Numbered from the stretch's first letter, positions 27,404 through 63,542 are shown. The stretch: DNA of 64,000 nt from a virus (IMGVR_UViG_3300022699_000502:1-64000), one strand, 5' to 3'. The notes: a model not told the origin generated them from the letters alone. Made by a program: numbers and translations.

Positions 27404-27475
27404 TTGCGGGTGGAGGAATCGAACCTCCGACTACCGGGTTATGAGCCCGGTGCCCTACCACTAGACCAACCCGCA
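27404..27475 (-). tRNA. tRNA-Met (anticodon CAU), initiator-like
   Basis: folds by hand as a 72-nt cloverleaf; 7-bp acceptor stem (U1:A72), U8, A14, D-loop GG, anticodon stem CCGGG/CCCGG, loop CUCAUAA with U33 and A37, 5-nt variable loop, T-arm GGAGG-TTCGATT-CCTCC; three G:C pairs next to the anticodon loop; no encoded CCA. Confidence 0.85.
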
Positions 27476-37363: not shown

Positions 37364-37804
37364 TTGCGTATTATTTATATTATGCGATGGACTCCAGAAG
37401 ACGAAAAAGAGTTAATGGATTGGTATGAGCTGTGTGGTAGTGATATCCCGAGTTTGTTAAATAAAGGGTATACTAAGAGTCAGATTAGGAGTAAGGCGTT
37501 CAGGATGGGATTATCAGAGAAGAATAAGTGTGGTCCTGGAAAATGTGATTTGACGGAACAGCAACTACTAGATATGTACCATGGTGAATACATGACAATC
37601 GAGCAGATTGCCGAGAAGACTGGGTGGGCCGAACAAACCATCTATAGGAAGATGCACGAGTATGAAGTGCCGTTAACCGGCAAGTTTCGGTATACAAAAT
37701 GTAGTGAGTGCGGGAAACGTATTAAGGCGGAGCGCGCTGATATATTGGATGATGATGCGGTTTTATGTGATATGTGTAAGGTTATGCGTAATTTAGGTAT
37801 CTAG
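37364..37804 (+). CDS. HTH-repeat DNA-binding protein with C-terminal zinc ribbon
   Basis: 146 aa; repeated ~40-aa HTH-like units ending RMGL / HEYEV, resembling the N-terminal repeats of the adjacent LAGLIDADG protein; CSECGKR ... CDMC. Confidence 0.5.
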   Translation: MRIIYIMRWTPEDEKELMDWYELCGSDIPSLLNKGYTKSQIRSKAFRMGLSEKNKCGPGKCDLTEQQLLDMYHGEYMTIEQIAEKTGWAEQTIYRKMHEYEVPLTGKFRYTKCSECGKRIKAERADILDDDAVLCDMCKVMRNLGI

Positions 37805-38872
37805 AGACTTTTCAAATTGTCTTTTTTTACGTTCTAAATACGTTTGTGCATCATCATATAAATATTCGTAAATATTCCTTTTATCGGTTTGTTTTCCGTA
37901 ATGTACAACGTAGTTTTCCTTTGATGGGTGTTTATATATGTCGTTCTTCGAATTTATTATAGTACCAATTATTTCGTTTACGTCTTGCATAAGTTGACGT
38001 GACCCGCATATCGTGAAACTATTACCGCTAATACTGCCGTCTGCATCAAACAATCCCCTTATGAAATGTCTGTGGTATTTTTCGGGTATATCTGGCATAT
38101 ATGTCTTATGTGACTTACACGGAACGACACCATATTTTTCTAAATCCTCAACTATCTTCTTTCGGGTTATCGATAAAGCAAATCCGTCCTTACCCGATTC
38201 GTGTATGCTGTGCGACGAACTCATTGCGTTTCTTAGTTTCAAAAGATGGTCGGTATCTTTCGCGTTCAATGATACAGTTAAACTATATCCCGTACCACCT
38301 TCTCCTGTTTTACCTATGTTTCCATCACCAACTATGAACCCCAACCAATATGCCTTTTCAGAACTATCCATCTCTTCGAAATAATCTTCGTCTACTTCTT
38401 TATATGAGTACTTTGTGTTCAGCCCATACTTCTTCAGATTCCTATAGACTGTATGCGGCGAAATATTGAGTGCATCCGCAATTTCCTGTTGTGTCATATC
38501 CTTATCATGGTACATTGTGTTTAGCATATTTTCCGTCGAATCGTAATCATTCAAGCTAGTTCTACATAATCCCATATCCTTCAAATAATTCGATATTGTT
38601 GATGTTGAAACCGAGAAAACCGAAGCAATTTTTTCTCGCGACAGTCCTTCATCAATATACATCCGTTTTAACATATCCTTATCTAATTCTTCTTGTACTC
38701 TCGTTTTGTTTTCGGACCAATCAGTTCGTTCTTCTATTAACCCAAACTTGATTATATGTTCATTGATATGCGATTTATCTACGTCTAGCAGACCCGCAAT
38801 GCGCTTGTGTGAATACTTTTTGTCTACGTACAAGTTCCGCAAAATCCGCTTCAATAACTGTTCTGCATCCAT
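37793..38872 (-). CDS. free-standing LAGLIDADG homing endonuclease with three N-terminal HTH repeats
   Basis: 359 aa; two LAGLIDADG motifs LGFIVGDGNIG and GLFDADGSIS; N-terminal repeats (each ending K-F/M/Y-GL). Confidence 0.75.
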   Translation of the reverse strand: MDAEQLLKRILRNLYVDKKYSHKRIAGLLDVDKSHINEHIIKFGLIEERTDWSENKTRVQEELDKDMLKRMYIDEGLSREKIASVFSVSTSTISNYLKDMGLCRTSLNDYDSTENMLNTMYHDKDMTQQEIADALNISPHTVYRNLKKYGLNTKYSYKEVDEDYFEEMDSSEKAYWLGFIVGDGNIGKTGEGGTGYSLTVSLNAKDTDHLLKLRNAMSSSHSIHESGKDGFALSITRKKIVEDLEKYGVVPCKSHKTYMPDIPEKYHRHFIRGLFDADGSISGNSFTICGSRQLMQDVNEIIGTIINSKNDIYKHPSKENYVVHYGKQTDKRNIYEYLYDDAQTYLERKKRQFEKSLDT

Positions 38873-40940: not shown

Positions 40941-41246
40941 ATGGAACAAGACGAGTTTGAAGAAATGGAGTCGGTTAGTACGAGAGCAATACGCTTAGGT
41001 CGTGTACAAAAGTTAATTTTGAGGGCATCGATGGATGAAGGACCAATGCGACAGAGGACGTTAACAGAGAAAGTTAACGAATTAGGCGATAAAGAAAGAA
41101 GTGAACAAACAGTTCGACAAAGTGCGATAAAGTTGCATAAAAAAGAGGAAGTGCCATTTGAGCGCAAAGATAACGGGAATTATATATATTACGGTATAAG
41201 CAATATGAGTGCGGCAAAAAAGATGTTTGGGAAAACATACGACTAA
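40941..41246 (+). CDS. winged-helix transcription regulator-like protein (101 aa)
   Basis: RVQKLILRASMDEGPMRQRTLTEKVNEL ... wing ERKDNGNYIYYGI; visibly GC-richer codons. Confidence 0.5.
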   Translation: MEQDEFEEMESVSTRAIRLGRVQKLILRASMDEGPMRQRTLTEKVNELGDKERSEQTVRQSAIKLHKKEEVPFERKDNGNYIYYGISNMSAAKKMFGKTYD

Positions 41247-41250
41247 ATAG

Positions 41251-41682
41251 GTGGTAGACATGATAAGCGAATTTGATGAAGTAATGCATATAGTTGCGGA
41301 TACACATAAACGCGTGTTATTTAAGTATCCGGCGCATGATATTGAGAGTTTCGCGATAGCAACGCACGAGATACTGACGTGGATCGAGATGAGCGAACCA
41401 GGTGATGAATACCATTTAGTTGAGAATATGTGCGAGAATTTGGCGTACAAAATGAATACGAACGTACCGATAACGATACAGAACGAAGCACAGAAGTGGG
41501 AAGCGTTAACAGCGTATGAATACGATGATATGAGGATGGTCGGTGTTGCGTTGAATACGGAATTATGGGAAGAAGAAGTAGGAGACGTTAAAGTTGCGTT
41601 AGAACACAATGGATACGAAGTAGTCGACGTAGAATACGGTAGCGAAGTGCATAACGCGTGGAATAAGTTCATCCGCGACTAA
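41251..41682 (+). CDS. hypothetical acidic protein (143 aa)
   Basis: GC-rich module; predicted pI very low. Confidence 0.5.
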   Translation: MVDMISEFDEVMHIVADTHKRVLFKYPAHDIESFAIATHEILTWIEMSEPGDEYHLVENMCENLAYKMNTNVPITIQNEAQKWEALTAYEYDDMRMVGVALNTELWEEEVGDVKVALEHNGYEVVDVEYGSEVHNAWNKFIRD

Positions 41683-41702
41683 ATCCCTTTATTTCTTTAT
41701 TT

Positions 41703-42038
41703 ATGTTGGAGGCGAATAATATGGAAAAAAAGAATGTAGTCGAGAAGATAGTGGAAATTGGGAATCAGATGATGTGGCTCGGGATACACGTGAATAGAGG
41801 CGATTGGACGTTAGCCTCACAGAGATTAGGAGTTAGCGATGATGGCGGATTAAGTGTGGCGTACTTGGTTGATTCGTTAGAAGACGAGATGCCTGAGAGT
41901 TCGTATGGGATGCTGAATTGGTTGATAACGCAAATACAGGATGATGTGATAGATGAAGCGGATTCAGTGAAATTCGATGTGTATGCGGAAAAAATGATGG
42001 CCGTCATTAAAGAAGAAGTTATACCGGAGGTGTTGTAG
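41703..42038 (+). CDS. hypothetical acidic protein (111 aa)
   Basis: GGAGG ribosome-binding site upstream. Confidence 0.45.
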   Translation: MLEANNMEKKNVVEKIVEIGNQMMWLGIHVNRGDWTLASQRLGVSDDGGLSVAYLVDSLEDEMPESSYGMLNWLITQIQDDVIDEADSVKFDVYAEKMMAVIKEEVIPEVL

Positions 42039-42221
42039 ATGACGAATAGTTGTAGGGCAGCGGAATGCCAGTTTTATGACGGAAGTGGGCAGCCGTGTGA
42101 GGTACCCGCCGAATTTTGTCCGTTGAGTAGTGGAAGAGAAGAGTTGAGTCCGGAGCTTGAGGATATGATCGCAAAGAATGAGCCGGAGCCGTTGCCTTCG
42201 TTCGAGGAGGTGTTCGGATGA
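42039..42221 (+). CDS. Cys-containing mini-protein (60 aa)
   Basis: CRAAECQFYDGSGQPCEVPAEFC; start abuts the upstream stop. Confidence 0.35.
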   Translation: MTNSCRAAECQFYDGSGQPCEVPAEFCPLSSGREELSPELEDMIAKNEPEPLPSFEEVFG

Positions 42222-42604
42222 GTAGAGAATTGTTGGTTGAGAGGCGGAATTTTAAGTTGTATAGGGATGACGGGCAATATGAGCTATATATCGATGTTGC
42301 CGGGACTGATACGGAAGTGATGCTCAATTTCCCTGATTTCGATGATGCGGAGTATGAGGAGTCCCTTAAGGAAGCGGCGGAATTCATGGGGTACGCCGAA
42401 CTAGTTGAGTCGGGTGAGTTTGATAACCCGGTATGTCCGCGATGTAAAGTGCATATGAGGCATGTGCCGTTTGAGGAGCATAGTTTGGAAGAAGCGCTGT
42501 ATGTGTGTGATGAATGTGATGATGAGTGGCCAGCGACAACGCTGGTTGATATGCATGCGGAGCACGAAGCGGATAAAGCACAGATGGCGTCAATGGAGAG
42601 ATGA
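42218..42604 (+). CDS. acidic protein with zinc ribbon (128 aa)
   Basis: CPRCKVHMRH ... CDECDDEW; 4-nt overlap coupling on both sides. Confidence 0.45.
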   Translation: MSRELLVERRNFKLYRDDGQYELYIDVAGTDTEVMLNFPDFDDAEYEESLKEAAEFMGYAELVESGEFDNPVCPRCKVHMRHVPFEEHSLEEALYVCDECDDEWPATTLVDMHAEHEADKAQMASMER

Positions 42605-42792
42605 CGATGACAGTGTATCCAGATGAGAAGCCGGATGATTGGAAAGAACGAGCAACATGCCCCGAGTGCGGAGCACAAGGCGATGGTGATACGTATGTGT
42701 ATGATGCTGGAGCATCTACGGTGTGCGGGGAATCTACGTATAAGTGTAGGAAGTGCGGTACTAAGTGGAGTTTCCTGTATGCGAGGGATTGA
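42601..42792 (+). CDS. zinc-ribbon mini-protein (63 aa)
   Basis: CPECGAQGDG ... CRKCGTKW. Confidence 0.4.
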   Translation: MTMTVYPDEKPDDWKERATCPECGAQGDGDTYVYDAGASTVCGESTYKCRKCGTKWSFLYARD

Positions 42793-42895
42793 GATGCCGG
42801 AGCTGTATTGTAAGAGGTGCGGAATATATCAGGAGTTTGAGAAGGTACCCGGTGGATACGAGTGTAAGGAGTGCGGGTACGTCGTTGAAACGTGA
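42779..42895 (+). CDS. zinc-ribbon mini-protein (~38 aa)
   Basis: MRGIEMPELYCKRCGIYQEFEKVPGGYECKECGYVVET; preferred over the long overlapping track ORF 42623..42895. Confidence 0.35.
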   Translation: MRGIEMPELYCKRCGIYQEFEKVPGGYECKECGYVVET

Positions 42896-42924
42896 AACCC
42901 TTCCTTTTCTTTTTTTAACGTTAA

Positions 42925-43100
42925 TTGCGTCACTTACGCCATAGATTGGTTAGTGGTCGGCGCGTCACTTACGCCATAAAATTTGATGCGCATTTTCGCA
43001 ATTTAGAAATTTCGCCGTTTACGCATTTGCGCAGTTTACGAATTTTCGCATACACAAAATACTAGTTGCGAATTTTCGCAATCTGCGAATTTGCGCAGGG
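42925..43100. repeat. right flank repeat block of the GC-rich module
   Basis: TCACTTACG at 42930 and 42965 (variant TCACTAACG at 43241); palindromes ACGAATTTTCGCAT (43038), TGCGAATTTTCGCAA (43067), TGCGAATTTGCGCA (43085); TTTAGAAATTTCGCC. Confidence 0.5.
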
Positions 43101-43505
43101 TCCCGCCTAGCGCGCCGGTACATGGTCCGGTTGGTCCCGGACGCGTACCCGGTCCACAATTTGTTGAAAACGAAGCCGCGGGCTCACTTGGGCAATTTAA
43201 GGTGAACCCGGAAAAATTTGTTGAATACCGGGGGGTCCCCTCACTAACGCAATAAATTTTATTTACGGTTTTAAATATTTTATAAGATTTGTTAGAGGTA
43301 TAAAATATTTTTAATTTTAAATAATTTATTGTCCTAAATAGCACAACAGTAATTATTTAAAATTTAAATATTATAAGGATAATTTAAACTAAAATCAGTA
43401 AATATGACGATTGTATGACAAAATTAACTATTTGTCATAAAACTGTCTGACGGTGTTTAATTAATATATTTTTATTATTTAGTTATTTTTTAAATTATAC
43501 TTATC

Positions 43506-43524
43506 GTTTAGATGACATCTAAAC
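43506..43524. repeat. palindrome GTTTAGAT-GAC-ATCTAAAC (left copy)
   Basis: 8-bp perfect inverted repeat with 3-nt spacer; same arms as 46409..46429. Confidence 0.5.
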
Positions 43525-44017
43525 ATAAAATTAGTGTTTATTTTTATAAAAATAAAATTTCAATAGGTTTATATGTAAAGTCTGCGTTAATTAAAAAAAA
43601 GAAAAAAAAAAAGAGGTCGGCTGGGCATACCTCTCAAAAAGGTTTGTAGGTTAATTACCTATGAATCTTGAGATAAAAATAAGCAAAATTGTAGGTAATA
43701 ATTTAAATCCTTATCTAATTTATTAAGTAATTTCATAATAACTTTATTTGGTCGGTATTACTGACTAAATAGAAATTAAACATTAAACTATCATACAGTT
43801 ATTAACTACCCTTAAAATAGGTTTAAACAATATTCAAGAGTAAATTAATACATACTTTTAGTATGCTTAAACATTAATCCTAATAAATTAGATAATAGGT
43901 TTTTTAGAATTTTTTTGGATAAACCAAATATAAAAAATCAATAATTCTGTATGTATGAATTTAAGTAGTATATACAGAATTAAAAAACCATTAAAATATA
44001 TATGTGAGGCGAATAAA

Positions 44018-44500
44018 ATGAAAAAAGAAGATATAGATAAATGGATAGAAGAAGCGAAAATAACAACAAACAACAAACAAAATAGTCTAAATATGAATGT
44101 AAGGGCAGATAGGTTATTATACCTATTTATCGGAGATAAAGAAAATAGGAAAATCCTTTATGGGAATGGATTACAGCAAAAAAGGATAAGAGATAGTCTG
44201 GTAAAATTAGGAATAGAAGAAGATAGTATAACCAGTCAGACCATTAGGAAACAAATGAGAAAAAACGCAGTAATAGATTATAACTGTAAAGAAACTAATG
44301 GAGATAATCCAGAAAATAAAACAAACAAACCTATATGGGCTAATAAAAGAAATTTCATTTATTACAGAGTTAATCCATATTATGTTAAGGAAAATATGGA
44401 TTTAAGGAAAGTCAGTAAAGTTGAAGTCAGTAATACAGTTAAGTCTATCATTAAATTCATTAAAAACCATCGACCAAAATTATATAATCTAAAGAAATAA
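44018..44500 (+). CDS. basic K/N-rich protein P1 of the AT-rich island (160 aa from the GAGG-linked ATG)
   Basis: GAGG 8 nt upstream of the ATG at 44018; very AT-rich codons; possible HTH near RIRDSLVKLGIEEDSITSQTIRKQMRKN. Confidence 0.5.
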   Translation: MKKEDIDKWIEEAKITTNNKQNSLNMNVRADRLLYLFIGDKENRKILYGNGLQQKRIRDSLVKLGIEEDSITSQTIRKQMRKNAVIDYNCKETNGDNPENKTNKPIWANKRNFIYYRVNPYYVKENMDLRKVSKVEVSNTVKSIIKFIKNHRPKLYNLKK

Positions 44501-44514
44501 AAACCTTTTATTTT
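44499..44514 (+). terminator. intergenic oligo-T element AAAAACCTTTTATTTT
   Basis: repeated after P1, P2 and P4; followed by TTTTTATATAAA TATA-like box. Confidence 0.35.
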
Positions 44515-44540
44515 CTTTTTTTATATAAATGGTGATAAAA

Positions 44541-44930
44541 ATGAATTTAGAAGATATGTATAAATTAAACATAAAATTCAATAATAGATATAGACTTAAG
44601 AATACAATTAAGAAAATAAAAAACAATAGTGAATACAGTAATTATGAGAAAATAAAAAGAATCAGTAGGTTAAAAAAGACCACAAAATTACATAATTGGT
44701 ATAAGTTATTTTCTTATTTTATAAAAGATAAGAAAATAATAACTGATACCGATTTAATTTTTACTGCATACAGATATATAACCAAATATACAGATATAAA
44801 AATAACCACAGTAATAAATAAATTTAATGAAATAGAATCATCATTAAAAACTAAATGGATAAAAGAAAAATCATTTTGGGTTAATATACAAAATGATGAA
44901 TTTTATCTTATCAGAAGTCTATGGAAATAA
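44541..44930 (+). CDS. basic K/N-rich protein P2 (129 aa)
   Basis: GGTGATAAAAATG start context. Confidence 0.5.
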   Translation: MNLEDMYKLNIKFNNRYRLKNTIKKIKNNSEYSNYEKIKRISRLKKTTKLHNWYKLFSYFIKDKKIITDTDLIFTAYRYITKYTDIKITTVINKFNEIESSLKTKWIKEKSFWVNIQNDEFYLIRSLWK

Positions 44931-44935
44931 AATAA

Positions 44936-44950
44936 AAACCTTTTATTTTT
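44936..44950 (+). terminator. intergenic oligo-T element AAAAACCTTTTATTTT
   Basis: second copy. Confidence 0.35.
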
Positions 44951-44994
44951 TATTTTTATATAAACTAAAAAACCTTTAATTTAGATGTGATAAA

Positions 44995-45423
44995 ATGATA
45001 TATGAATTTAATAGACCAGAAGAAATAAATTTAAAACCCTTTAAGGTTATTTTCAATAAAATAACCCTATCTGAAAATAGAAATCATTTAAAGATAAAAC
45101 TATCCTATTGGGATAATTGCCAAAGGTTAAGAGAAATAAATAAAAGGAAAAAAGAAACTGACTTATATATAAAAATACCAAAGAAATTAACTGATGATAT
45201 TAAGGTAAATATCAATAAAACAATAAACCTAAATTTAGAATTGGAATTAATCCATACAGTAATTAAAAATATAAAATATTTAATTTTACATAAAAATAGA
45301 AATTACAGTAAATATCATTATACAAAAATACAGAAAATTATAAGATTTTTAGAAGATATAGAAAATAAAATTTCCAGAAGGATAGATGTTAAACCATTAA
45401 ATGACTTATTTGGTGGTGAATAA
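44995..45423 (+). CDS. basic K/N-rich protein P3 (142 aa)
   Basis: GATGTGATAAAATG start context. Confidence 0.5.
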   Translation: MIYEFNRPEEINLKPFKVIFNKITLSENRNHLKIKLSYWDNCQRLREINKRKKETDLYIKIPKKLTDDIKVNINKTINLNLELELIHTVIKNIKYLILHKNRNYSKYHYTKIQKIIRFLEDIENKISRRIDVKPLNDLFGGE

Positions 45424-45424
45424 A

Positions 45425-45790
45425 ATGATAAAAAATACTTCTCTTATTGGATTAGGGAAAATAGTACATTTAAGAATAAACCAAATAGTAACAGATATAT
45501 CAGAAAATACAATTTATTTAGAATTTAATAAACATAATAGTGATAAAAACCATACTGATACAATAAGAATAATTGAAATAGATAAAAATAACATTAAAAC
45601 CAATAAATATAATGACCCAATTACTGAAATAACAATAAATGATGATACATTTATTAAAATAACATTTAATCAGTTATATAGTTGGATAGATACAATAATA
45701 TCATTTATTACGATAAATAATCAGATAGAGTTAAAAAGAAAATTAGAGAAAATACAGTTATTCTTAAATGAATATATAGATTATATCTAA
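45425..45790 (+). CDS. K/N/I-rich protein P4 (121 aa from the GGTGA-linked ATG)
   Basis: GGTGGTGAATAAAATG start context; abuts the P3 stop. Confidence 0.5.
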   Translation: MIKNTSLIGLGKIVHLRINQIVTDISENTIYLEFNKHNSDKNHTDTIRIIEIDKNNIKTNKYNDPITEITINDDTFIKITFNQLYSWIDTIISFITINNQIELKRKLEKIQLFLNEYIDYI

Positions 45791-45804
45791 AAACCTATTT
45801 TTTT
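45789..45804 (+). terminator. intergenic oligo-T element AAAACCTATTTTTTTT
   Basis: third copy (variant). Confidence 0.3.
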
Positions 45805-46057
45805 TATTATATTTTTTTGAGAATTTTTATTGGAATTTTTATATATAAATTAATTAATCCTTAATATCTATTATCCTATTTTCTATCTTAACATATAGGT
45901 TATAGATTTATCAAAATTAGGTTATTAGAAGTCTTATAGTGGGGTATATTACCGATTGAATTAATTGATTAAGGGTTAATAACATTTAGACTTTTTAGAT
46001 ACAATATAAAAATTATGATAATAGAAAATATAAATCTAATTTTGTGTGTTTTATCAT

Positions 46058-46222
46058 ATTTCTATTTACTCAATTCTTATAAATTAGTTAATTGTTAAAT
46101 TTTTATTTCTATAAACCTTAATCCTATAATTAACCTATATTTTATTTCTATAAACCTTAATCTTATAATAAGATATTTCTTATTTCTATTTACTTAATTC
46201 TTATATTAATTAGTTATTTCTT
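46058..46222. repeat. nested direct repeats R1-R2-R2-R1
   Basis: R1 ~36 bp TATTTCTATTTACT(C/T)AATTCTTATA..TTAGTTA at 46058 and 46180; R2 ~29 bp TTTATTTCTATAAACCTTAATC(C/T)TATAAT at 46097 and 46140. Confidence 0.5.
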
Positions 46223-46408
46223 AATTGATAGGTTAATATATATTTTATATCTATAAATTAAAAAATTCTGTAATTTTTTTTTTATAAGATTAATCCTAAT
46301 ATTAATTAAAATTTAATTTTTTTTAGATTGAGTTAATAAAAATATTTTCTATATTGAGATATTTTTATAAAATATTTTTAGCCGAATCTCAAATAAAAAT
46401 CATCTAAT

Positions 46409-46429
46409 CGTTTAGATATTATCTAAACG
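46409..46429. repeat. palindrome CGTTTAGATA-T-TATCTAAACG (right copy)
   Basis: 10-bp arms; core GTTTAGAT..ATCTAAAC is identical to 43506..43524; preceded by a partial CATCTAAT. Confidence 0.5.
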
Positions 46430-46784
46430 GAGAGATGAATTTTTTATATTCTTATAAAACAATTAAGGTAAATTAATTAATTAGTAGGTTTATTAAAATA
46501 TCTCTATATATGTGTGTATGACATATCGTCAGACATATTTATATTGAGATTTTAAATATTATACGGTATTAAATTGAGAATTTAAAATAATTTTATTTGA
46601 GAAAAATTTTCATTAATTATTTAAAATTTTAAATAATTAACAAATCTGTAAAATAATTTTTAATTATTAAAATCACAAAATAAATTTCATTTGTCACTGG
46701 TTATTTAAATTATATACAAATTTAAAATTTTTTTACCCTCCAATTATTCCAAAACATTTATATAGTACCCCATTTATATAATAT

Positions 46785-47318
46785 ATGATGGGTTGCCCAA
46801 TATGTGACCATGAGAACAGGGATGATATCGAAGCGGAAGTCGCGAACGGTTTCCCTAAAAAGATAATCGCGCAAGATATTGGATGCAGTATCGAGGACAT
46901 ATTAGACCACATGGAAAACCACTCAAAATACGGCCAGCCCGGTGGTGAGGACGCTACCATGGAGGACCAAATTGGGGGCCACTACAAAAATATGTACCCT
47001 CCCAGGGACTCATACGAAAAATACGACGTGCTGAACACGAATATGGAGCGCCTTACAGACCGGTTCGACAGCTTGATGGAGAAAGACCATCTCGACAAAG
47101 ACGACACAAAACAGATAGTTAGTATGGCGCGCGAACTCAGGCAAACAGTGATGAATTTGGCCGAATTAGAAGGCGAATTACACAAGGAGCTTGCCCTAAC
47201 AAGGGCGCAATTTGAAGCGCTCAAAGAAGCCGTTCTACGCGAACTTGACCCCGACACGCAAGAGGTCATAATCAACGCGATCGATGAGTCCCAAATAGAA
47301 GTAGAAGCTGACCAATAG
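46785..47318 (+). CDS. terminase small subunit candidate
   Basis: 177 aa directly upstream of TerL; N-terminal CPICDH and HTH-like AQDIGCSIEDILDH; C-terminal coiled-coil, the usual TerS architecture. Confidence 0.55.
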   Translation: MMGCPICDHENRDDIEAEVANGFPKKIIAQDIGCSIEDILDHMENHSKYGQPGGEDATMEDQIGGHYKNMYPPRDSYEKYDVLNTNMERLTDRFDSLMEKDHLDKDDTKQIVSMARELRQTVMNLAELEGELHKELALTRAQFEALKEAVLRELDPDTQEVIINAIDESQIEVEADQ

Positions 47319-48967: not shown

Positions 48968-49057
48968 TGGCTCAATCCCGTTCCGTTTTCCTTTCGGTGT
49001 TTGGGCGACTAACTATATGTGTAAGGTCATATATAAAGATTATGGACAGGTGTTCAC

Positions 49058-59400: not shown

Positions 59401-62400
59401 ACCATCACTAAAATTCAGTGATACTGTTGAAAGTGATGATCATGCGGGTGTGATATTATCAAGTGAGACGACTAACGATAAGCACACATATATACATAAT
59501 TATGACAATTCACTATTATTTATTGATGACAGAGAAACTGTAAATACATCACCGGTACCTGACATAAATAATACATCCGATATATTTAATGATACGAAAA
59601 GCCAATCTGCGCAATGGACGGATTGGGATGCAGCAAAACCAGTAACGATCACAATTGATTCAAATAATCATGATAGTTCGTCGATTGATTATATTTACTT
59701 TGATTTTGAGAATGGAAGATATTGTTCCGATATAAAAGCAGAGTATTATGATGGTTCATGGCATACATTTTATAATACAACAAATAATGATGATGAATTA
59801 CCATTTATACACAAAAGCGAATTTAGCGAGCAGGTTAGCGGCTGGATACAACTTAAGTTCACGTTTGACGGTACGTTAGCATACACGGATGATCTGCGTA
59901 TTGATGAAATAGGTGTATTTAGTCCGGATGAAGATGAAGGGTTTGTGATGAAACGTAGCGGTGGGAATATATATGATACCATCGATATGAACCAAAATAG
60001 TATCATTAATGCAAGCGCATATAATGGTGTGGACATAAATACACATATAACTGATGCAGATGCGCATCACTGGCATGATGATCATTATGGCCTCATCAGA
60101 TATCAGAGTGTACCGCCCGGAACTACCAAATTTGAGCAAGTATATATAGATACCGATGATGATACCTTACAAGTTTATGATGGCGGTGCATGGGTAACGA
60201 TAGCTGGCGGCGGTACAGCGCCACAAAACTTATCCGACTTGAACGACGTTACAGATGTATCATATTCGGCAGGCTATACATTAAGAGCAAACGGATCGCA
60301 ATATGTTACGGCCCAATTAGATCATAGCGATTTGGCAGGACTAAGTCCTGATAACCACCACACAGCGTTCACACCGACTGATCATGATTCTAGAGATCAT
60401 AGTCCTGTTGCATCTACAATGGACTTGAATGAGTTAGCAGCACCTTCCTCCCAACTCGACATCAATTATCAAGACCTCGATAATGTAGGCGTAATAGATT
60501 TCGATACAACTCCTTCAACAACATCACATCAAGAGGGTAGAGTAAGGTGGAATAATACTGATAAAACTCTACAAGCGGATACTGAAATAACTGATGTTTC
60601 ATTACAAGTCGGTCAAGAAATGTATGTAAGAGTCCAAAATAATACTGGAAGCACTATTAATAATGGCGATGTAGTATATATTAATGATGGTTCTTCTGAT
60701 AATCCTACTATCGGGTTAGCACAAGCAAATGATAAAAATAAAGCCCATAGAACCATAGGTATGGCAACACACGATATATCCGACGGCTCAATTGGATATG
60801 TAACAACGTACGGTAGAATTAGAGGATTAGATACTTCATCCTACACATTAGGCGACGAATTGTGGTTAAGCCCAGATACTGCTGGCGGTGTTACAGATAC
60901 AGAACCGGTCGGATTGGATAACAGGATAAAAGTAGGGGTAGTAATAAGAAGTGATGCAAGTGATGGTATCATATTCTTCAATAAAACTCAATTCTTTAAT
61001 GCATCAGATATAAAGCTCAATAATGCTGCTAATGCATCATATACTAACTTACAGCAAAAATTAGACCATACCGCTGCAACCGGCATATATGAAGGCGGGG
61101 CGATAACTGATAATGGTGACGGAACTATCGATATATCTGGTGGTAGTGCCCAAATTAAAACAAGTAGTAGTTGGACTGCTGAAGTATTAGAAATAGATTT
61201 TAGTAGTGCAACAAATTTAACACCAACAGACGATGATAGTACATATTATTATTTGGATTATAACGGTGGTAGTCCAACAATCTCGTCAACTACATCTAGA
61301 GATAGTATAAATTTCCAAGACGAATTATATATCGGTAAGGTATATAGGAACGGTACGGACATAACCATAATAAATACTTCACAACAAGTGGCTGGAATAA
61401 CAACTAAAGGTCTATATTCAACATATTATAAAGACGAAGTAAAAAGAGTAACTGGATTAACATTGAGTGAAACTGGAAACAGGTATTTACAAATAACGGC
61501 TGGGTTATTATTTTATGGATATACAAGGATAGACATAAGCGCTAAAGATACATCAGGAACAGACACATTCACATATTGGTATAGAGATGGTAGTGGTGGT
61601 TGGACGACGACTACTGGTAATACGCAAGTATCCAACCAGCAGTACGACGATGGTACTGGAACCCTAGCAAATATCGAAAATAACGACTACGGTGTATTTT
61701 GGGTTTATATGGGACACGACGGGAAATTACATGTACAATATGGACAAAATTCTTATAATAAATATGCAGATGCTTTGAATGCAACTATACCAGATGCGCC
61801 CGATTTATTGGGTACCTTCTGTACATTCATCGCTAAAATCATAATTGAAGAAGACGGAACTAACTTTGATGATGTACTGATACCATGGATGAACGGTGGT
61901 GTTGGTGGTGCTACCGTTACAGACCACGGTAATCTAAGTGGATTGGGCGACGATGACCACCTACAATACCTGTTACATGACGGTAGTAGAGCTATGAGTG
62001 GAAATTTAGATATGGGTACAAACAACATCACTAATGTAGGCAATGTAGATGGTGTAGATGTATCTGACCATAGCACGAGACATGAAGATGGTGGTGCAGA
62101 CGAATTGAATGTGGGTGGGTTATCAGGAGAATTAGCCGACCCACAAACGCCTAAAACACATGCTAGCACACATTATGATGGTGGAACCGATGAGTTGGAT
62201 GCTGCAGATTTAGCAGGAGCATCAGGAACATCCGGACAATATTTGAAGACGGATGGATCAACAGCAACTTGGGCAGATATAGAAGCTGTATCGGATCATG
62301 GAAACCTTACGGGGCTTGATGATGATGATCATACCCAATATTTGCTGGTTGATGGTACCAGGACTATGAGTGGAAACTTAAATATGGACGGAAACAATAT

Positions 62401-62644: not shown

Positions 62645-63542
62645 CGATAATAGAGGTAAAATAATGGTAGAACAATATAAAAATAAAAAAGTATTGCAGA
62701 AGTTATATTATGATAAGGAAATGAGTATGTCAGAAATAGGTAATAAATTTAATGTTTCACAACAAACAATAATGTATTATATGGACAAATATGATATTAA
62801 AAGAAGAAGTTTATCGGAAGCACTCAAAGGTGAAAATGCTCCTATGTATGGTAAAACACATAGTGAAGAAACTAAAAAGAAAATGTCAGAATCACATAAG
62901 GGTGTAAACCATCACCAGTATGGGAAAAAACTTCCTCAGGAAGTTAAACAAAAAATATCAGAGTCTATGAAGGGAGAAAAAAATCCTATGTACGGAAAGT
63001 TAGGTAAAGATGCTCCTTGGTATAATAAAAGTCATTCCGAAGAAACTAAAAAGAAAATGTCAGAATCACATAAGGGTGTAAACCATCATTTCTACGGCAA
63101 GAATTTATCTAAAAAACATAAGAATAAGATATCAGAATCTATGAAAGGAAAAACATGTAGTGAGGAAACTAAGCAGAAAATTTCCAAAGCATTATCAGGT
63201 GAAAATGCTCCGTGGTATGGTAAATCAGGTAAAGATAATCCTCATTGGAAACCTGATAGTAATAATTATGAGATTTGGAGAGAAAGAACTTTATCAAGTA
63301 ATAAGTATCAAAAAGTTAGAAAAAAAGTACTAAAAAGAGATAATTATAAATGTCAATTGTGTGATAATAATATGAAATTAGAAGTTCATCATATTATACC
63401 AATGAGAAAACTATGGGATATAGATAATAAAAAATTGGTTACAGATATAAATAATCTTATCACGTTATGTAAGAAATGTCATCAAAGTATAAAAGGTAGG
63501 GAAAAGGAATATAAAAAGATTTTTAAGGAGATTGTAAAATAA
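62637..63542 (+). CDS. HNH homing endonuclease with NUMOD3 DNA-binding repeats
   Basis: 301 aa; repeated (T/S)HSEETKKKMSESHKG... NUMOD3-type units (5 or more); C-terminal HNH CQLCDN..EVHHIIP..N..LCKKCH; N-terminal HTH. Confidence 0.75.
   Translation: MRNDNRGKIMVEQYKNKKVLQKLYYDKEMSMSEIGNKFNVSQQTIMYYMDKYDIKRRSLSEALKGENAPMYGKTHSEETKKKMSESHKGVNHHQYGKKLPQEVKQKISESMKGEKNPMYGKLGKDAPWYNKSHSEETKKKMSESHKGVNHHFYGKNLSKKHKNKISESMKGKTCSEETKQKISKALSGENAPWYGKSGKDNPHWKPDSNNYEIWRERTLSSNKYQKVRKKVLKRDNYKCQLCDNNMKLEVHHIIPMRKLWDIDNKKLVTDINNLITLCKKCHQSIKGREKEYKKIFKEIVK

What the first reader, a model, noticed from the sequence alone, without database searches (positions are those of the whole stretch)
43260..46780. 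Compositionally alien ~3.5-kb island of four self-contained gene cassettes encoding basic K/N-rich proteins
The neighbouring virus sequence is moderately AT-rich and encodes strongly acidic, halophile-like proteins. This segment is extremely AT-rich and encodes four low-complexity basic proteins (P1 to P4), the opposite charge signature. Each gene carries the same private signal set: TTTTTATATAAA box, GGTGAT(A)AAAATG start context, and an AAAAACCTTTTATTTT terminator. They therefore look like four independently expressed cassettes rather than part of the surrounding polycistronic architecture. The island sits exactly between a GC-rich acquired module and the packaging genes and is bracketed by a shared palindrome. 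It is the best candidate in the window for a recently acquired, undescribed accessory system. Candidate roles are anti-defence effectors, a selfish element, or nucleoid-binding proteins from a non-halophilic donor.
Basis: seen in the sequence. Interest (0 to 1): 0.85.

Follow-up and report, generated by a model that had tools for sequence, protein, structure and literature searches.

The report
AT-rich orphan-gene island before packaging genes
A complete ~137-kb genome of an uncultured salt-adapted archaeal virus has a real 3.5-kb, 19%-GC stretch just before its DNA-packaging genes; half of it is non-coding control DNA partly shared with a related virus, and half is four small genes with no relatives anywhere, so it is an add-on gene cluster in a variable slot, not a demonstrably recent alien system.

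Summary
The compositional anomaly is real and extreme. GC is about 0.19 over 43256-46784, against 0.38 for the genome. The edges are sharp, and the dinucleotide signature lies 7 SD from any other 3.5-kb segment.

Four same-strand ORFs (P1-P4) are far longer than chance allows. They have no homologues in any library searched (only P1 in the two largest).

The finding needs these corrections:
- 47% of the island is non-coding.
- Only three proteins are basic, and that charge is what a 50%-A coding strand produces anyway.
- P3 and P4 are translationally coupled, so there are at most three transcription units.
- The TTTTTATATAAA box precedes only P2 and P3 and travels with the preceding terminator motif.
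- The GGTGA start context and the AAACC..T-run terminator are the virus lineage's own grammar, not private signals.

None of the virus's roughly 30 canonical BRE-TATA promoters lies in the island.

The rightmost ~390 bp, carrying two dyad sites and the late promoter, is conserved in the only close relative (terminase large subunit, TerL, 87% identical). More distant relatives also carry AT-rich tracts, with different small genes or none, at the same slot.

Best reading: a moron-like orphan-gene cluster sitting in an ancestral AT-rich control region. Its function is unknown.

The parts
42895..42920 (+). Terminator-like motif AAACCCTTCCTTTTCTTTTTTTA ending the zinc-ribbon gene operon left of the island. 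It is the same motif type as the ones after P1 and P2.
   Evidence: (repeat family D3). In the window this motif occurs only here and after P1 and P2.
42925..43255 (.). GC-rich non-coding repeat region abutting the island. It holds GCGTCACTTACGCCATA twice plus one degenerate copy at 43238, 3.5 copies of a 17-bp tandem unit, and TTNCGCA-type boxes every 8-9 bp. Function unknown; it is probably a protein-binding array.
   Evidence: (D1, D11, D12). No significant RNA fold. No Rfam match.
43256..44017 (.). Left AT-rich non-coding arm. It contains the dyad TATGACAAA-N8-TTTGTCATA (43414-43439), the motif TGTCTGACG (43444-43452) and the palindrome CGTTTAGAT-GAC-ATCTAAAC (43505-43525).
   Evidence: no ORF longer than 45 aa; motifs far above chance; palindrome hairpin z = -4.5.
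43586..43640 (-). Intrinsic-terminator-like element on the minus strand: a hairpin of -9.7 kcal/mol followed by U11CU8. It implies a leftward transcript inside the left arm.
   Evidence: (1 of 200 shuffles folds as well) and the sequence.
44018..44500 (+). P1, 160 aa (181 aa if translation starts at 43955, as JGI called it). GC 0.27, pI about 10. GAGG lies 9 nt before the ATG. It has no homologues.
   Evidence: (no real homologue among 1.84 billion representative proteins). AlphaFold2 pLDDT 37.
44495..44529 (+). Copy 1 of the 35-nt intergenic repeat AAATAAAAACCTTTTATTTTCTTTTTTTATATAAA: a weak A/U hairpin, a T-run and a palindromic TATA-like box.
   Evidence: D8, 94% identity between copies; hairpin only -3.5 kcal/mol.
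44541..44930 (+). P2, 129 aa, GC 0.19, pI 9.9. GGTGAT lies 4 nt before the ATG (GGTGAT 44531-44536, ATG 44541). It has no homologues.
44930..44964 (+). Copy 2 of the 35-nt repeat. The geometry of its TATA-like box fits a transcription start about 10 nt before the P3 ATG.
   Evidence: (40 nt from box to ATG, against 43-44 nt in the virus's leadered promoters).
44995..45423 (+). P3, 142 aa, GC 0.20, pI 9.75. It has no homologues.
45425..45790 (+). P4, 121 aa (129 aa if translation starts at 45401). GC 0.19, pI about 6, net charge -2. It is translationally coupled to P3: GGTGGTGA, then the P3 stop TAA, one base, then ATG.
   Evidence: AlphaFold2 pLDDT 39.
45788..45849 (+). Third terminator-like motif (TAAAAACCTATTTTTTTT) plus a TATA-like box (TTTTTATATATAAA) after P4. 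No ORF follows it.
   Evidence: (D9).
45850..46748 (.). Right AT-rich non-coding arm. It holds four iteron-like direct repeats of 28-30 nt (46054, 46101, 46140, 46178), the palindrome CGTTTAGAT-ATT-ATCTAAACG (46409-46429), and the imperfect dyad GTATGACA-TAT-CGTCAGACA (46515-46535; the CGTCAGACA half is the inverted TGTCTGACG motif). Positions 46408-46748 are homologous to relative L003.
   Evidence: D2, D19; palindrome hairpin -12.2 kcal/mol, z = -4.1.
46749..46766 (+). Canonical BRE-TATA promoter CCAAAACATTTATATAGT of the packaging/late operon (24.7 bits, among the highest scores in the window). It gives a leaderless start for the terminase small subunit (TerS)-like gene at 46785/46788. This is native virus sequence, not part of any insert.
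   Evidence: It is conserved in L003 and L007.

Best explanation
The segment is a composite of two things.

(1) Ancestral control DNA. The right arm, and probably the AT-rich tract as such, is a non-coding control region that precedes the single strong promoter of the packaging/late operon in this archaeal virus lineage. It carries conserved dyad-symmetric sites and iteron-like repeats. These most likely bind a regulator or packaging protein.

(2) An add-on gene cluster. Inside that slot lies a moron-like cluster of four orphan genes in at most three transcription units: P1, P2, and P3-P4. They are translated through the host-type GGTGA Shine-Dalgarno motif and end at A/U hairpin plus oligo-T motifs of the lineage's own kind. 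No canonical virus BRE-TATA promoter serves them. Expression would therefore have to come from BRE-less TATA-like boxes or from read-through, and may be weak or differently timed.

The lysine-rich, basic character of the proteins follows from an A-rich coding strand.

Shown: composition, coding potential, signal anatomy, orphan status, and conservation of the right arm.

Inferred: that the genes are accessory; that the slot turns over genes; that the products are small nucleic-acid-binding or regulatory/host-takeover proteins; and that the dyads are protein-binding sites.
For: - Composition and dinucleotide signature are outliers.
- The ORFs are far longer than chance allows, and codon periodicity is present.
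- Orphan status. P1 has no homologue in 5.8 billion proteins by word search or 1.84 billion representatives by HMMER. P1-P4 are singletons at 90% identity among 15 billion proteins. There are no hits in 84 related loci, IMG/VR (P2-P4 only), phage or plasmid records, or Pfam, PHROGs, PADLOC and NCBIfam.
- The same slot in relatives:
  - L003 (TerL 87%) has at least 548 bp of 15-17% GC DNA upstream of its TerS-like gene, with 46408-46799 homologous and both dyads retained, including one compensatory change in the palindrome.
  - L007 (TerL 54%) has more than 2 kb of AT-rich DNA there. It holds three different small genes, each with a TATA box, a GTGA(T/A)AAAATG start and an AAATCCTTTTATTTTT-type terminator.
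  - L004 has about 340 bp of AT-rich DNA there and no gene.
- The terminator motif and the Shine-Dalgarno context are shared with the host virus.
- No canonical promoter lies in the island, whereas the flanking TerS-like gene's promoter scores 24.7 bits.
- The contig closes on itself through a 99-bp overlap, so the island lies inside a complete genome.
- The published definition of a moron is extra DNA between conserved genes, with deviating GC and its own promoter and terminator (PMC3594210).
- Long AT-rich intergenic control repeats are known in HF1-group haloviruses (PMC7230728).
Against: - No relative shows the empty site or the same genes, so 'insertion' is not demonstrated. The close relative's contigs stop on both sides of the slot (L003 and L087).
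- Promoters for P1, P2 and P4 are not identified. The box before P2 is too close to its ATG for archaeal geometry (21 nt, against 28-30 or 43-44 nt).
- 1.66 kb of non-coding DNA with mirrored motifs is more than a simple moron needs.
- Function is pure inference: the structure predictions failed.
Confidence: 0.5

Rival explanations
1. One reading: the whole 3.5 kb is a single recent acquisition from an extremely AT-rich, non-halophilic donor. It brought its own expression signals and an accessory (anti-defence or similar) system.
For: - GC is 0.19 against 0.38, and the dinucleotide distance of 0.258 is 7 SD out.
- No canonical virus promoter lies in 3.5 kb, against about 30 in the other ~60 kb of the window.
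- The proteins are orphans.
- Other low-GC basic genes in this genome are demonstrably selfish, such as the HNH-NUMOD3 homing endonuclease at GC 0.28.
Against: - The right ~390 bp of the tract is shared with a relative that has diverged to 87% TerL identity.
- AT-rich tracts occupy the same slot in L004, L007 and L016.
- The Shine-Dalgarno and terminator grammar is that of the lineage.
- The basic charge is explained by composition.
- No donor or homologue was found anywhere.
- There are no hits to defence or anti-defence models.
Confidence: 0.2
2. It is an integrated or degenerate autonomous element, either a small plasmid-like replicon or a transposon-like cassette. The element would be bounded by the mirrored motif pairs: TGTCTGACG then the palindrome on the left, and the palindrome then CGTCAGACA on the right. 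It would carry iterons as its origin and P1-P4 as its own genes.
For: - The two motifs occur only in the two arms, in mirror order, far above chance.
- Four iteron-like direct repeats lie in the right arm.
- Composition is alien.
- No virus-type promoters are present.
Against: - There are no long terminal inverted repeats. Arm-to-arm similarity beyond the short motifs is weak (score 38 against shuffles at 23.6 +/- 4, and 34 in direct orientation).
- No target-site duplication is visible at the compositional edges.
- No transposase, integrase, Rep or partition NTPase was detected.
- The right-hand motif pair sits at a conserved distance from the promoter of the TerS-like gene in the relative, as expected of native control DNA.
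- Collection scans for the palindrome (the longer 21-nt form in genome contigs) returned only chance-level hits.
Confidence: 0.12
3. It is a purely cis-acting region, either a replication origin with an unwinding element or a pac/cos and concatemer-processing site next to the TerS-like gene. The four ORFs would be incidental or non-functional.
For: - There is 1.66 kb of non-coding AT-rich DNA with iterons, dyads and an adjacent GC-rich repeat array, immediately upstream of the small-terminase-like gene.
- Part of it is conserved in relatives.
Against: - Four tandem same-strand ORFs of 121-160 aa in 19%-GC DNA are highly improbable by chance.
- Each has a Shine-Dalgarno-like motif.
- A-skew and codon periodicity are confined to the ORF block.
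- P4's charge departs strongly from the compositional expectation.
- A cis-acting role for the arms is compatible with the best explanation.
Confidence: 0.08
4. It is an assembly chimera: foreign AT-rich DNA mis-joined into the virus contig.
For: The compositional edges are sharp, and the source is a single metagenome.
Against: - The right junction, AT tract plus TerS-like gene, was assembled independently in another sequencing run (L003).
- Both flanks are syntenic with that relative.
- An internal 3.5-kb chimera would need two false joins.
- The contig circularises cleanly.
Confidence: 0.03

Closest known systems
Phage morons (HK97/HK022 concept; Juhala/Hendrix, reviewed in PMC3594210)
   Same: - Extra small genes sit between conserved modules.
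- GC differs strongly from the neighbours.
- Terminator-like elements follow the genes, and TATA-like boxes precede some of them.
- The location is next to the head/packaging genes.
- The proteins are orphans.
   Different: - The virus is archaeal.
- The empty site has not been observed in a relative.
- No promoter of the virus's canonical type is present.
- Half of the segment is non-coding, with conserved dyads.
- This is a cluster of four genes rather than one.
- Expression from a prophage is unknown.
AT-rich intergenic repeat (IR) control regions of HF1-group haloarchaeal myoviruses (PMC7230728)
   Same: Long AT-rich non-coding stretches lie at strategic positions relative to transcription units in a tailed halovirus, and they are conserved among relatives.
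   Different: - The HF1 repeats are repeated around the genome and contain functional promoters.
- This tract is unique in the ~84 kb examined.
- It contains no canonical promoter except the one for the TerS-like gene at its edge.
- It encloses four genes.
Host-takeover modules of SPO1 and pre-early regions of T5 (my own knowledge, not checked here)
   Same: A cluster of small orphan genes lies in short operons with their own terminators, near the packaging or terminal region of a large virulent-type genome.
   Different: Those modules lie in terminal redundancies and have many strong early promoters. Here no strong promoters are found, and the genome ends are unknown because the assembly is circular.
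Lambda immunity region flanked by the OL and OR operator sets (my own knowledge)
   Same: A small gene block of about 3 kb with lower GC is bracketed by repeated dyad-symmetric sites on both sides.
   Different: - No divergent promoters are present.
- No recognisable repressor is present. A helix-turn-helix in P1 is only suggested by a low-confidence model.
- The flanking genes are all co-oriented.

Membership tests
Phage moron | Extra DNA relative to otherwise syntenic related genomes (an insertion between conserved neighbours) | tested here: inconclusive
   Flanking synteny is conserved in the closest relative (L087 to the left, L003 to the right), but its contigs break inside the slot. L004 has only about 340 bp of AT-rich DNA there. 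L007 has three other genes. No P1-P4 homologue is found in 84 related loci.
Phage moron | Nucleotide composition different from the surrounding genes | tested here: met
   GC is 0.19-0.27 against 0.377 +/- 0.044, and the dinucleotide distance is 7 SD out.
Phage moron | Own promoter and own terminator | tested here: inconclusive
   Terminator-like motifs follow P1, P2 and P4. TATA-like boxes precede only P2 and P3. They lack the virus BRE, and the one before P2 is mis-spaced. There are no transcript data.
Phage moron | Expressed independently, for example from a prophage, and conferring a phenotype | not testable with these tools
   Needs RNA-seq or experiments.
Transposon, IS or MITE-like mobile element | Terminal inverted repeats at the element ends plus a target-site duplication | tested here: not met
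   Only short internal motifs are shared between the arms. There is no extended TIR and no direct repeat at the compositional edges.
Transposon, IS or MITE-like mobile element | Transposase or recombinase gene, or multiple copies elsewhere | tested here: not met
   No Pfam, PHROG or NCBIfam hit. The motifs are absent from the rest of the window and from 20 kb more of the contig. Collection scans gave only chance-level hits.
Iteron-type plasmid or viral replicon | Array of direct repeats (iterons) next to an AT-rich stretch | tested here: met
   Four copies of 28-30 nt at 46054-46207, with spacing of 38-47 bp.
Iteron-type plasmid or viral replicon | Adjacent replication initiator (Rep, primase or helicase) gene | tested here: not met
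   P1-P4 are 121-160 aa and match no Rep-type family.
Type II toxin-antitoxin pair (P3-P4) | Two small overlapping or coupled genes | tested here: met
   The P3 stop is at 45421-45423 and the P4 ATG at 45425, with GGTGGTGA upstream.
Type II toxin-antitoxin pair (P3-P4) | Homology of either partner to a known toxin or antitoxin fold or family | tested here: not met
   No Pfam, PADLOC or NCBIfam hit. The P4 model is unusable.
Homing endonuclease gene | LAGLIDADG, HNH, GIY-YIG or similar nuclease domain | tested here: not met
   None is found in P1-P4. Genuine examples elsewhere in the genome are readily detected.

The most novel reading that the evidence does not exclude
The 3-kb core (about 43410-46540) is a discrete autonomous element of a so-far undescribed kind that lives inside archaeal virus genomes. 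It would be bracketed by mirrored operator-like motif pairs, carry its own iteron origin and four orphan genes, derive from an extremely AT-rich gene pool, and be transcriptionally insulated from its carrier virus because it has no canonical promoters. In effect it would be a plasmid-like or satellite-like parasite of a halovirus.
Probability: 0.1. Interest if true: 0.7.

Novelty: new member of a known kind. Interest (0 to 1): 0.35.

Why it matters
If the best reading holds, this is a clear archaeal-virus example of the 'moron / variable slot' architecture well known in bacteriophages. Orphan small genes accumulate in an AT-rich control region just upstream of the packaging operon, with composition far from the rest of the genome.

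It also yields a practical by-product: a well-defined promoter grammar for this uncultured virus lineage (CCAnnAnn-TTTAWATA, either leaderless or with a leader of about 14 nt). It identifies two conserved dyad sites upstream of the late operon that could be tested as regulator or terminase binding sites.

It does not, on present evidence, open a long-standing question. The proteins have no homologues, no predicted fold and no assignable function.

Tried and rejected
HOMOLOGY SEARCHES
- P1 was searched by word index and by full HMMER. The only non-self hit (P0075) is a 1302-aa tandem-repeat protein matched 19 times by a 47-residue stretch, and I rejected it as spurious.
- The DUF5889 hit for P2 (E = 8e-4, below the curated cut-off) and weak PHROG hits were rejected as compositional.
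- PADLOC, NCBIfam and PDB sequence searches gave nothing.
- IMG/VR scans for P2-P4 and for TerL found no close relatives.
- The only match among phage and plasmid DNA or protein records was an AT-rich endosymbiont plasmid, which is compositional.

STRUCTURE AND PARALOGY
- Single-sequence AlphaFold2 models of P1 and P4 had pLDDT 37 and 39, so I ran no fold search.
- No paralogy exists among P1-P4 or with other window ORFs.
- An apparent P1 / 40941-41246 winged-helix resemblance seen by eye was not significant.

NON-CODING RNA AND REGULATORY SCANS
- Rfam and tRNA scans of the arms found no family.
- Folding the GC-rich region gave z-scores of -0.6 and -1.0, so it is not a structured RNA.
- The sigma-70 promoter scan found fewer sites than in shuffles and is uninformative for an archaeal virus.

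OTHER TESTS
- Alternative genetic codes (TGA or TAG read as sense) change none of the ORFs and do not open the arms.
- Scans for the palindrome in virus and genome collections gave chance-level hits in unrelated bacteria.
- Extended inverted repeats between the arms were rejected.
- Paper searches for the sample accessions found nothing.

Full report
CONTEXT

The window is part of JGI metagenome contig Ga0248669_100020 (137,081 bp). Window position 1 is contig position 76,699. The window runs across the contig end, whose last 99 bp repeat its first 99 bp. The assembly therefore closes into a genome of about 136,982 bp.

The virus is a tailed archaeal virus:
- It has a large terminase subunit (TerL) of the MJ0330_N family, a portal protein, Hjc resolvase, AGOG glycosylase, PolX and an NAD-dependent ligase.
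- Its promoters are archaeal BRE-TATA elements.
- Its proteome is acidic, with a median pI of 4.96 over 121 ORFs.

Genes run leftward up to about 38.9 kb and rightward from about 39 kb. From the promoter at 46749 to the window end no further canonical + strand promoter occurs. The small-terminase-like (TerS-like), TerL, portal and structural genes therefore form one long late operon.

Composition. GC drops from about 0.48-0.50 to 0.15-0.25 at 43255 and recovers at 46785. No other AT-rich tract longer than 400 bp exists in the window or in about 20 kb more of the contig. P2-P4 have GC 0.195-0.204 and P1 0.265, against 0.377 +/- 0.044 (minimum 0.28) for the other ORFs. The dinucleotide relative-abundance distance of the island to the rest is 0.258, against 0.061 +/- 0.028 (maximum 0.141) for other 3.5-kb segments.

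Coding. Four consecutive + strand ORFs have stop-free runs of 188, 147, 133 and 129 codons. The longest run in shuffled island sequence averages 72.6 +/- 14, and only the most extreme of 500 shuffles reached 146. Codon-position periodicity is significant in P1 (p = 0.006) and P4 (p = 0.001) and absent in the arms. A strong A-over-T skew is confined to the ORF block. Alternative genetic codes change nothing, and all four genes stop at TAA.

WHAT NEEDS CORRECTING IN THE OBSERVATION

1. Almost half of the island is non-coding. This covers 43256-44017 and 45791-46748, with no ORF above 45 and 27 aa respectively.

2. P4 is not basic (pI about 6, net charge -2). P1-P3 carry net +16, +16 and +12. Random translation of the 50%-A coding strand gives +22.6 +/- 6.2 per 138 residues. 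The 'opposite charge signature' is therefore a consequence of composition, not independent evidence. If anything, the proteins are less basic than expected.

3. The signal set is neither uniform nor private.
   - TTTTTATATAAA occurs twice only, before P2 and P3.
   - Both copies sit exactly 19 nt after the AAAAACCTTTTATTTT motif, inside a 35-nt repeat (94% identical).
   - They lie at different distances from the start codons, 21 nt and 40 nt.
   - P3 and P4 are translationally coupled, with no intergenic signals.
   - The hairpins are weak, at -3.5 and -5.5 kcal/mol. If these are terminators, they work as archaeal oligo-T signals.
   - The same motif type ends the operon to the left of the island at 42895. 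It also follows the small genes in relative L007.
   - A GGTGA or GAGG motif followed by an A-rich spacer and ATG is also the start context of other genes in the virus.

4. The bracketing palindrome is real. CGTTTAGAT-N3-ATCTAAAC occurs at 43505 and 46409 only. A second motif, TGTCTGACG, occurs at 43444 on the + strand and at 46527 on the - strand only. All are far above chance for the island's own composition.

PROMOTER GRAMMAR

Nineteen promoters taken from TTTAWATA boxes that precede ORFs define a clear consensus, CCAnnAnn-TTTAWATA. The ATG lies either 28-30 nt from the TATA start (leaderless) or 43-44 nt from it (a leader of about 14 nt containing AAGAGG or AGGTGA).

A weight matrix built from these sites finds 31 sites of at least 12 bits in the 64-kb window. 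None of them lies among the island's genes and arms (43256-46740), where the best score is 9.2 bits, even though that stretch is full of A/T strings. The site at 46749, for the TerS-like gene, scores 24.7 bits.

The BRE-less box before P3 has workable geometry. The one before P2 does not, unless translation starts at Met-6.

COMPARATIVE EVIDENCE

TerL has only one close relative in 5.8 billion proteins. It is P0003 (87% identity, carrying an intein), on a 7.1-kb Logan contig from SRR11308167, locus L003.

L003 begins 548 bp upstream of its TerS-like gene, in DNA of 15-17% GC. Window 46408-46799 aligns to it: 77% identity over the last 150 bp and 63% over the next 230 bp. The promoter and both dyad motifs are retained in the same order and at similar spacing. 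One A·T to C·G double change preserves the symmetry of the palindrome.

A second contig from the same run, L087, matches window 41658-42864 at 77-87% identity and has about 50% GC. The 'GC-rich module' is therefore shared with the relative and is not a recent acquisition. Neither contig spans the slot.

The state of the slot in more distant relatives:

| Locus | TerL identity | Slot upstream of the TerS-like gene |
|---|---|---|
| L007 (soda-lake sediment) | 54% | More than 2 kb of 14-33% GC DNA with three small genes, each with a TATA box, a GTGA(T/A)AAAATG start and an AAATCCTTTTATTTTT-type terminator. Two are zinc-ribbon proteins and one is a 216-aa basic protein. The conserved promoter of the TerS-like gene follows. 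|
| L004 | 49% | About 340 bp of AT-rich DNA, no gene |
| L016 | 46% | An AT-rich stretch |
| Still more distant relatives | lower | No AT-rich tract |

None of the 84 related loci encodes a P1-P4 homologue.

An AT-rich, signal-dense slot upstream of the packaging operon is therefore a lineage trait, and its gene content varies.

THE PROTEINS

- P1 has no homologue by word-indexed search or by full HMMER against 1.84 billion representatives. The one extra hit is a repeat-protein artefact.
- All four proteins are singletons at 90% identity among 15 billion sequences.
- Pfam, PHROGs, PADLOC, NCBIfam, PDB, IMG/VR (P2-P4 only), phage and plasmid searches gave nothing credible.
- They are not paralogues of each other.
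- Single-sequence structure models are unusable.

MOST LIKELY EXPLANATION (confidence about 0.5)

The segment is a composite.

The right arm, and probably the AT-rich tract itself, is ancestral control DNA in front of the late/packaging promoter. Its conserved dyads and iteron-like repeats are best read as protein-binding sites for a regulator or for the packaging machinery. That reading is inference.

Within this slot the virus carries a moron-like cluster of four orphan genes in at most three units. The cluster meets the compositional criterion for morons and partly meets the promoter/terminator criterion (definition in PMC3594210). The insertion criterion could not be tested.

The products are small and lysine-rich. 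In an acid-proteome, salt-adapted host, a nucleic-acid-binding, regulatory or host-takeover role is the most plausible guess. Nothing here demonstrates it.

Long AT-rich intergenic control regions are already known in HF1-group haloviruses (PMC7230728).

RIVAL EXPLANATIONS

| Rival | Confidence | Main evidence for | Main evidence against |
|---|---|---|---|
| One recent foreign block | 0.2 | Composition; missing canonical promoters | Shared right arm; lineage-type translation and termination signals |
| Autonomous or mobile element bounded by the mirrored motifs, with iterons as its origin | about 0.12 | Mirrored motifs; iteron-like repeats | No extended inverted repeats; no recombinase or Rep; no other copies |
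| Purely cis-acting origin or packaging region with spurious ORFs | about 0.08 | Long non-coding arms with repeats next to the TerS-like gene | ORF statistics |
| Assembly chimera | about 0.03 | Sharp edges; single metagenome | Independently assembled right junction; conserved synteny on both sides; clean circular closure |

VERDICT

The anomaly is real and striking in composition. It is best classed as a new member of a known kind: an accessory orphan-gene cluster in a variable, AT-rich slot of a tailed virus.

The 'cassette' regularity and the charge argument do not hold up, part of the tract is demonstrably old, and no functional handle exists.

Interest is about 0.35. The reading as a novel element remains possible at about 0.1.

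Noticed in passing
window 62664-63542 (+): A free-standing HNH homing endonuclease with six NUMOD3 repeats (Pfam E = 7e-44 and 5e-9). It has GC 0.28 and pI 9.7 and is inserted among the late (tail or fibre) genes. It is the only other markedly low-GC, basic gene in the window.
   Followed up: partly
window 37793-38872 (-): A 359-aa protein with several helix-turn-helix repeats and a LAGLIDADG_3 domain, probably a homing endonuclease or maturase-like gene. It lies at the divergence point of the two transcription arms.
   Followed up: partly
L003 1301-3130 (relative from SRR11308167): The TerL of the closest relative is 609 aa and carries an intein (PF14890). The window's TerL (474 aa) does not. 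This is presence/absence of a selfish element in the packaging ATPase.
   Followed up: no
window 60285-60383: The window runs across the end of the source contig. The contig's last 99 bp equal its first 99 bp, so the assembly is circular and the genome is about 136,982 bp.
   Followed up: yes
window 42925-43255: A 330-bp GC-rich non-coding array lies directly left of the island. It holds GCGTCACTTACGCCATA twice plus a degenerate copy at the island edge, TTNCGCA-type boxes every 8-9 bp, and ATTTGTTGAA(A/T)AC twice. It shows no significant RNA fold. It could be an origin, pac site or regulator array.
   Followed up: partly
window 49028-49045 (-); L003 about 3206 (-); L007 about 4245 (-): A canonical BRE-TATA promoter on the minus strand lies in the short TerL-portal spacer and is conserved in three related viruses. 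It would drive antisense transcription into TerL. Alternatively, its near-palindromic TATA box, 28 nt before the portal ATG, serves the portal gene.
   Followed up: no
window 43586-43640 (-): A good intrinsic-terminator-like hairpin followed by U11CU8 lies on the minus strand inside the left arm. This suggests an unannotated leftward transcript of about 300 nt (a possible ncRNA) divergent from P1.
   Followed up: partly
whole window, for example 1759(-), 11142(-), 34606(-), 40353(+), 46749(+): The virus has a very regular promoter grammar, CCAnnAnn-TTTAWATA. The ATG is either 28-30 nt from the TATA start (leaderless) or 43-44 nt from it (short leader with AAGAGG or AGGTGA). There are 31 sites of at least 12 bits in 64 kb.
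   Followed up: yes
window 27404-27475 (-): A virus-encoded tRNA-Met (CAT).
   Followed up: no
L015 about 1600-2870 and L011 about 300-1600: In two relatives with 54% TerL identity, a stretch of about 1.3 kb at 24-30% GC, without + strand ORFs, separates the TerS-like gene or its neighbouring small gene from TerL. This is another variable low-GC insert in the packaging module.
   Followed up: no
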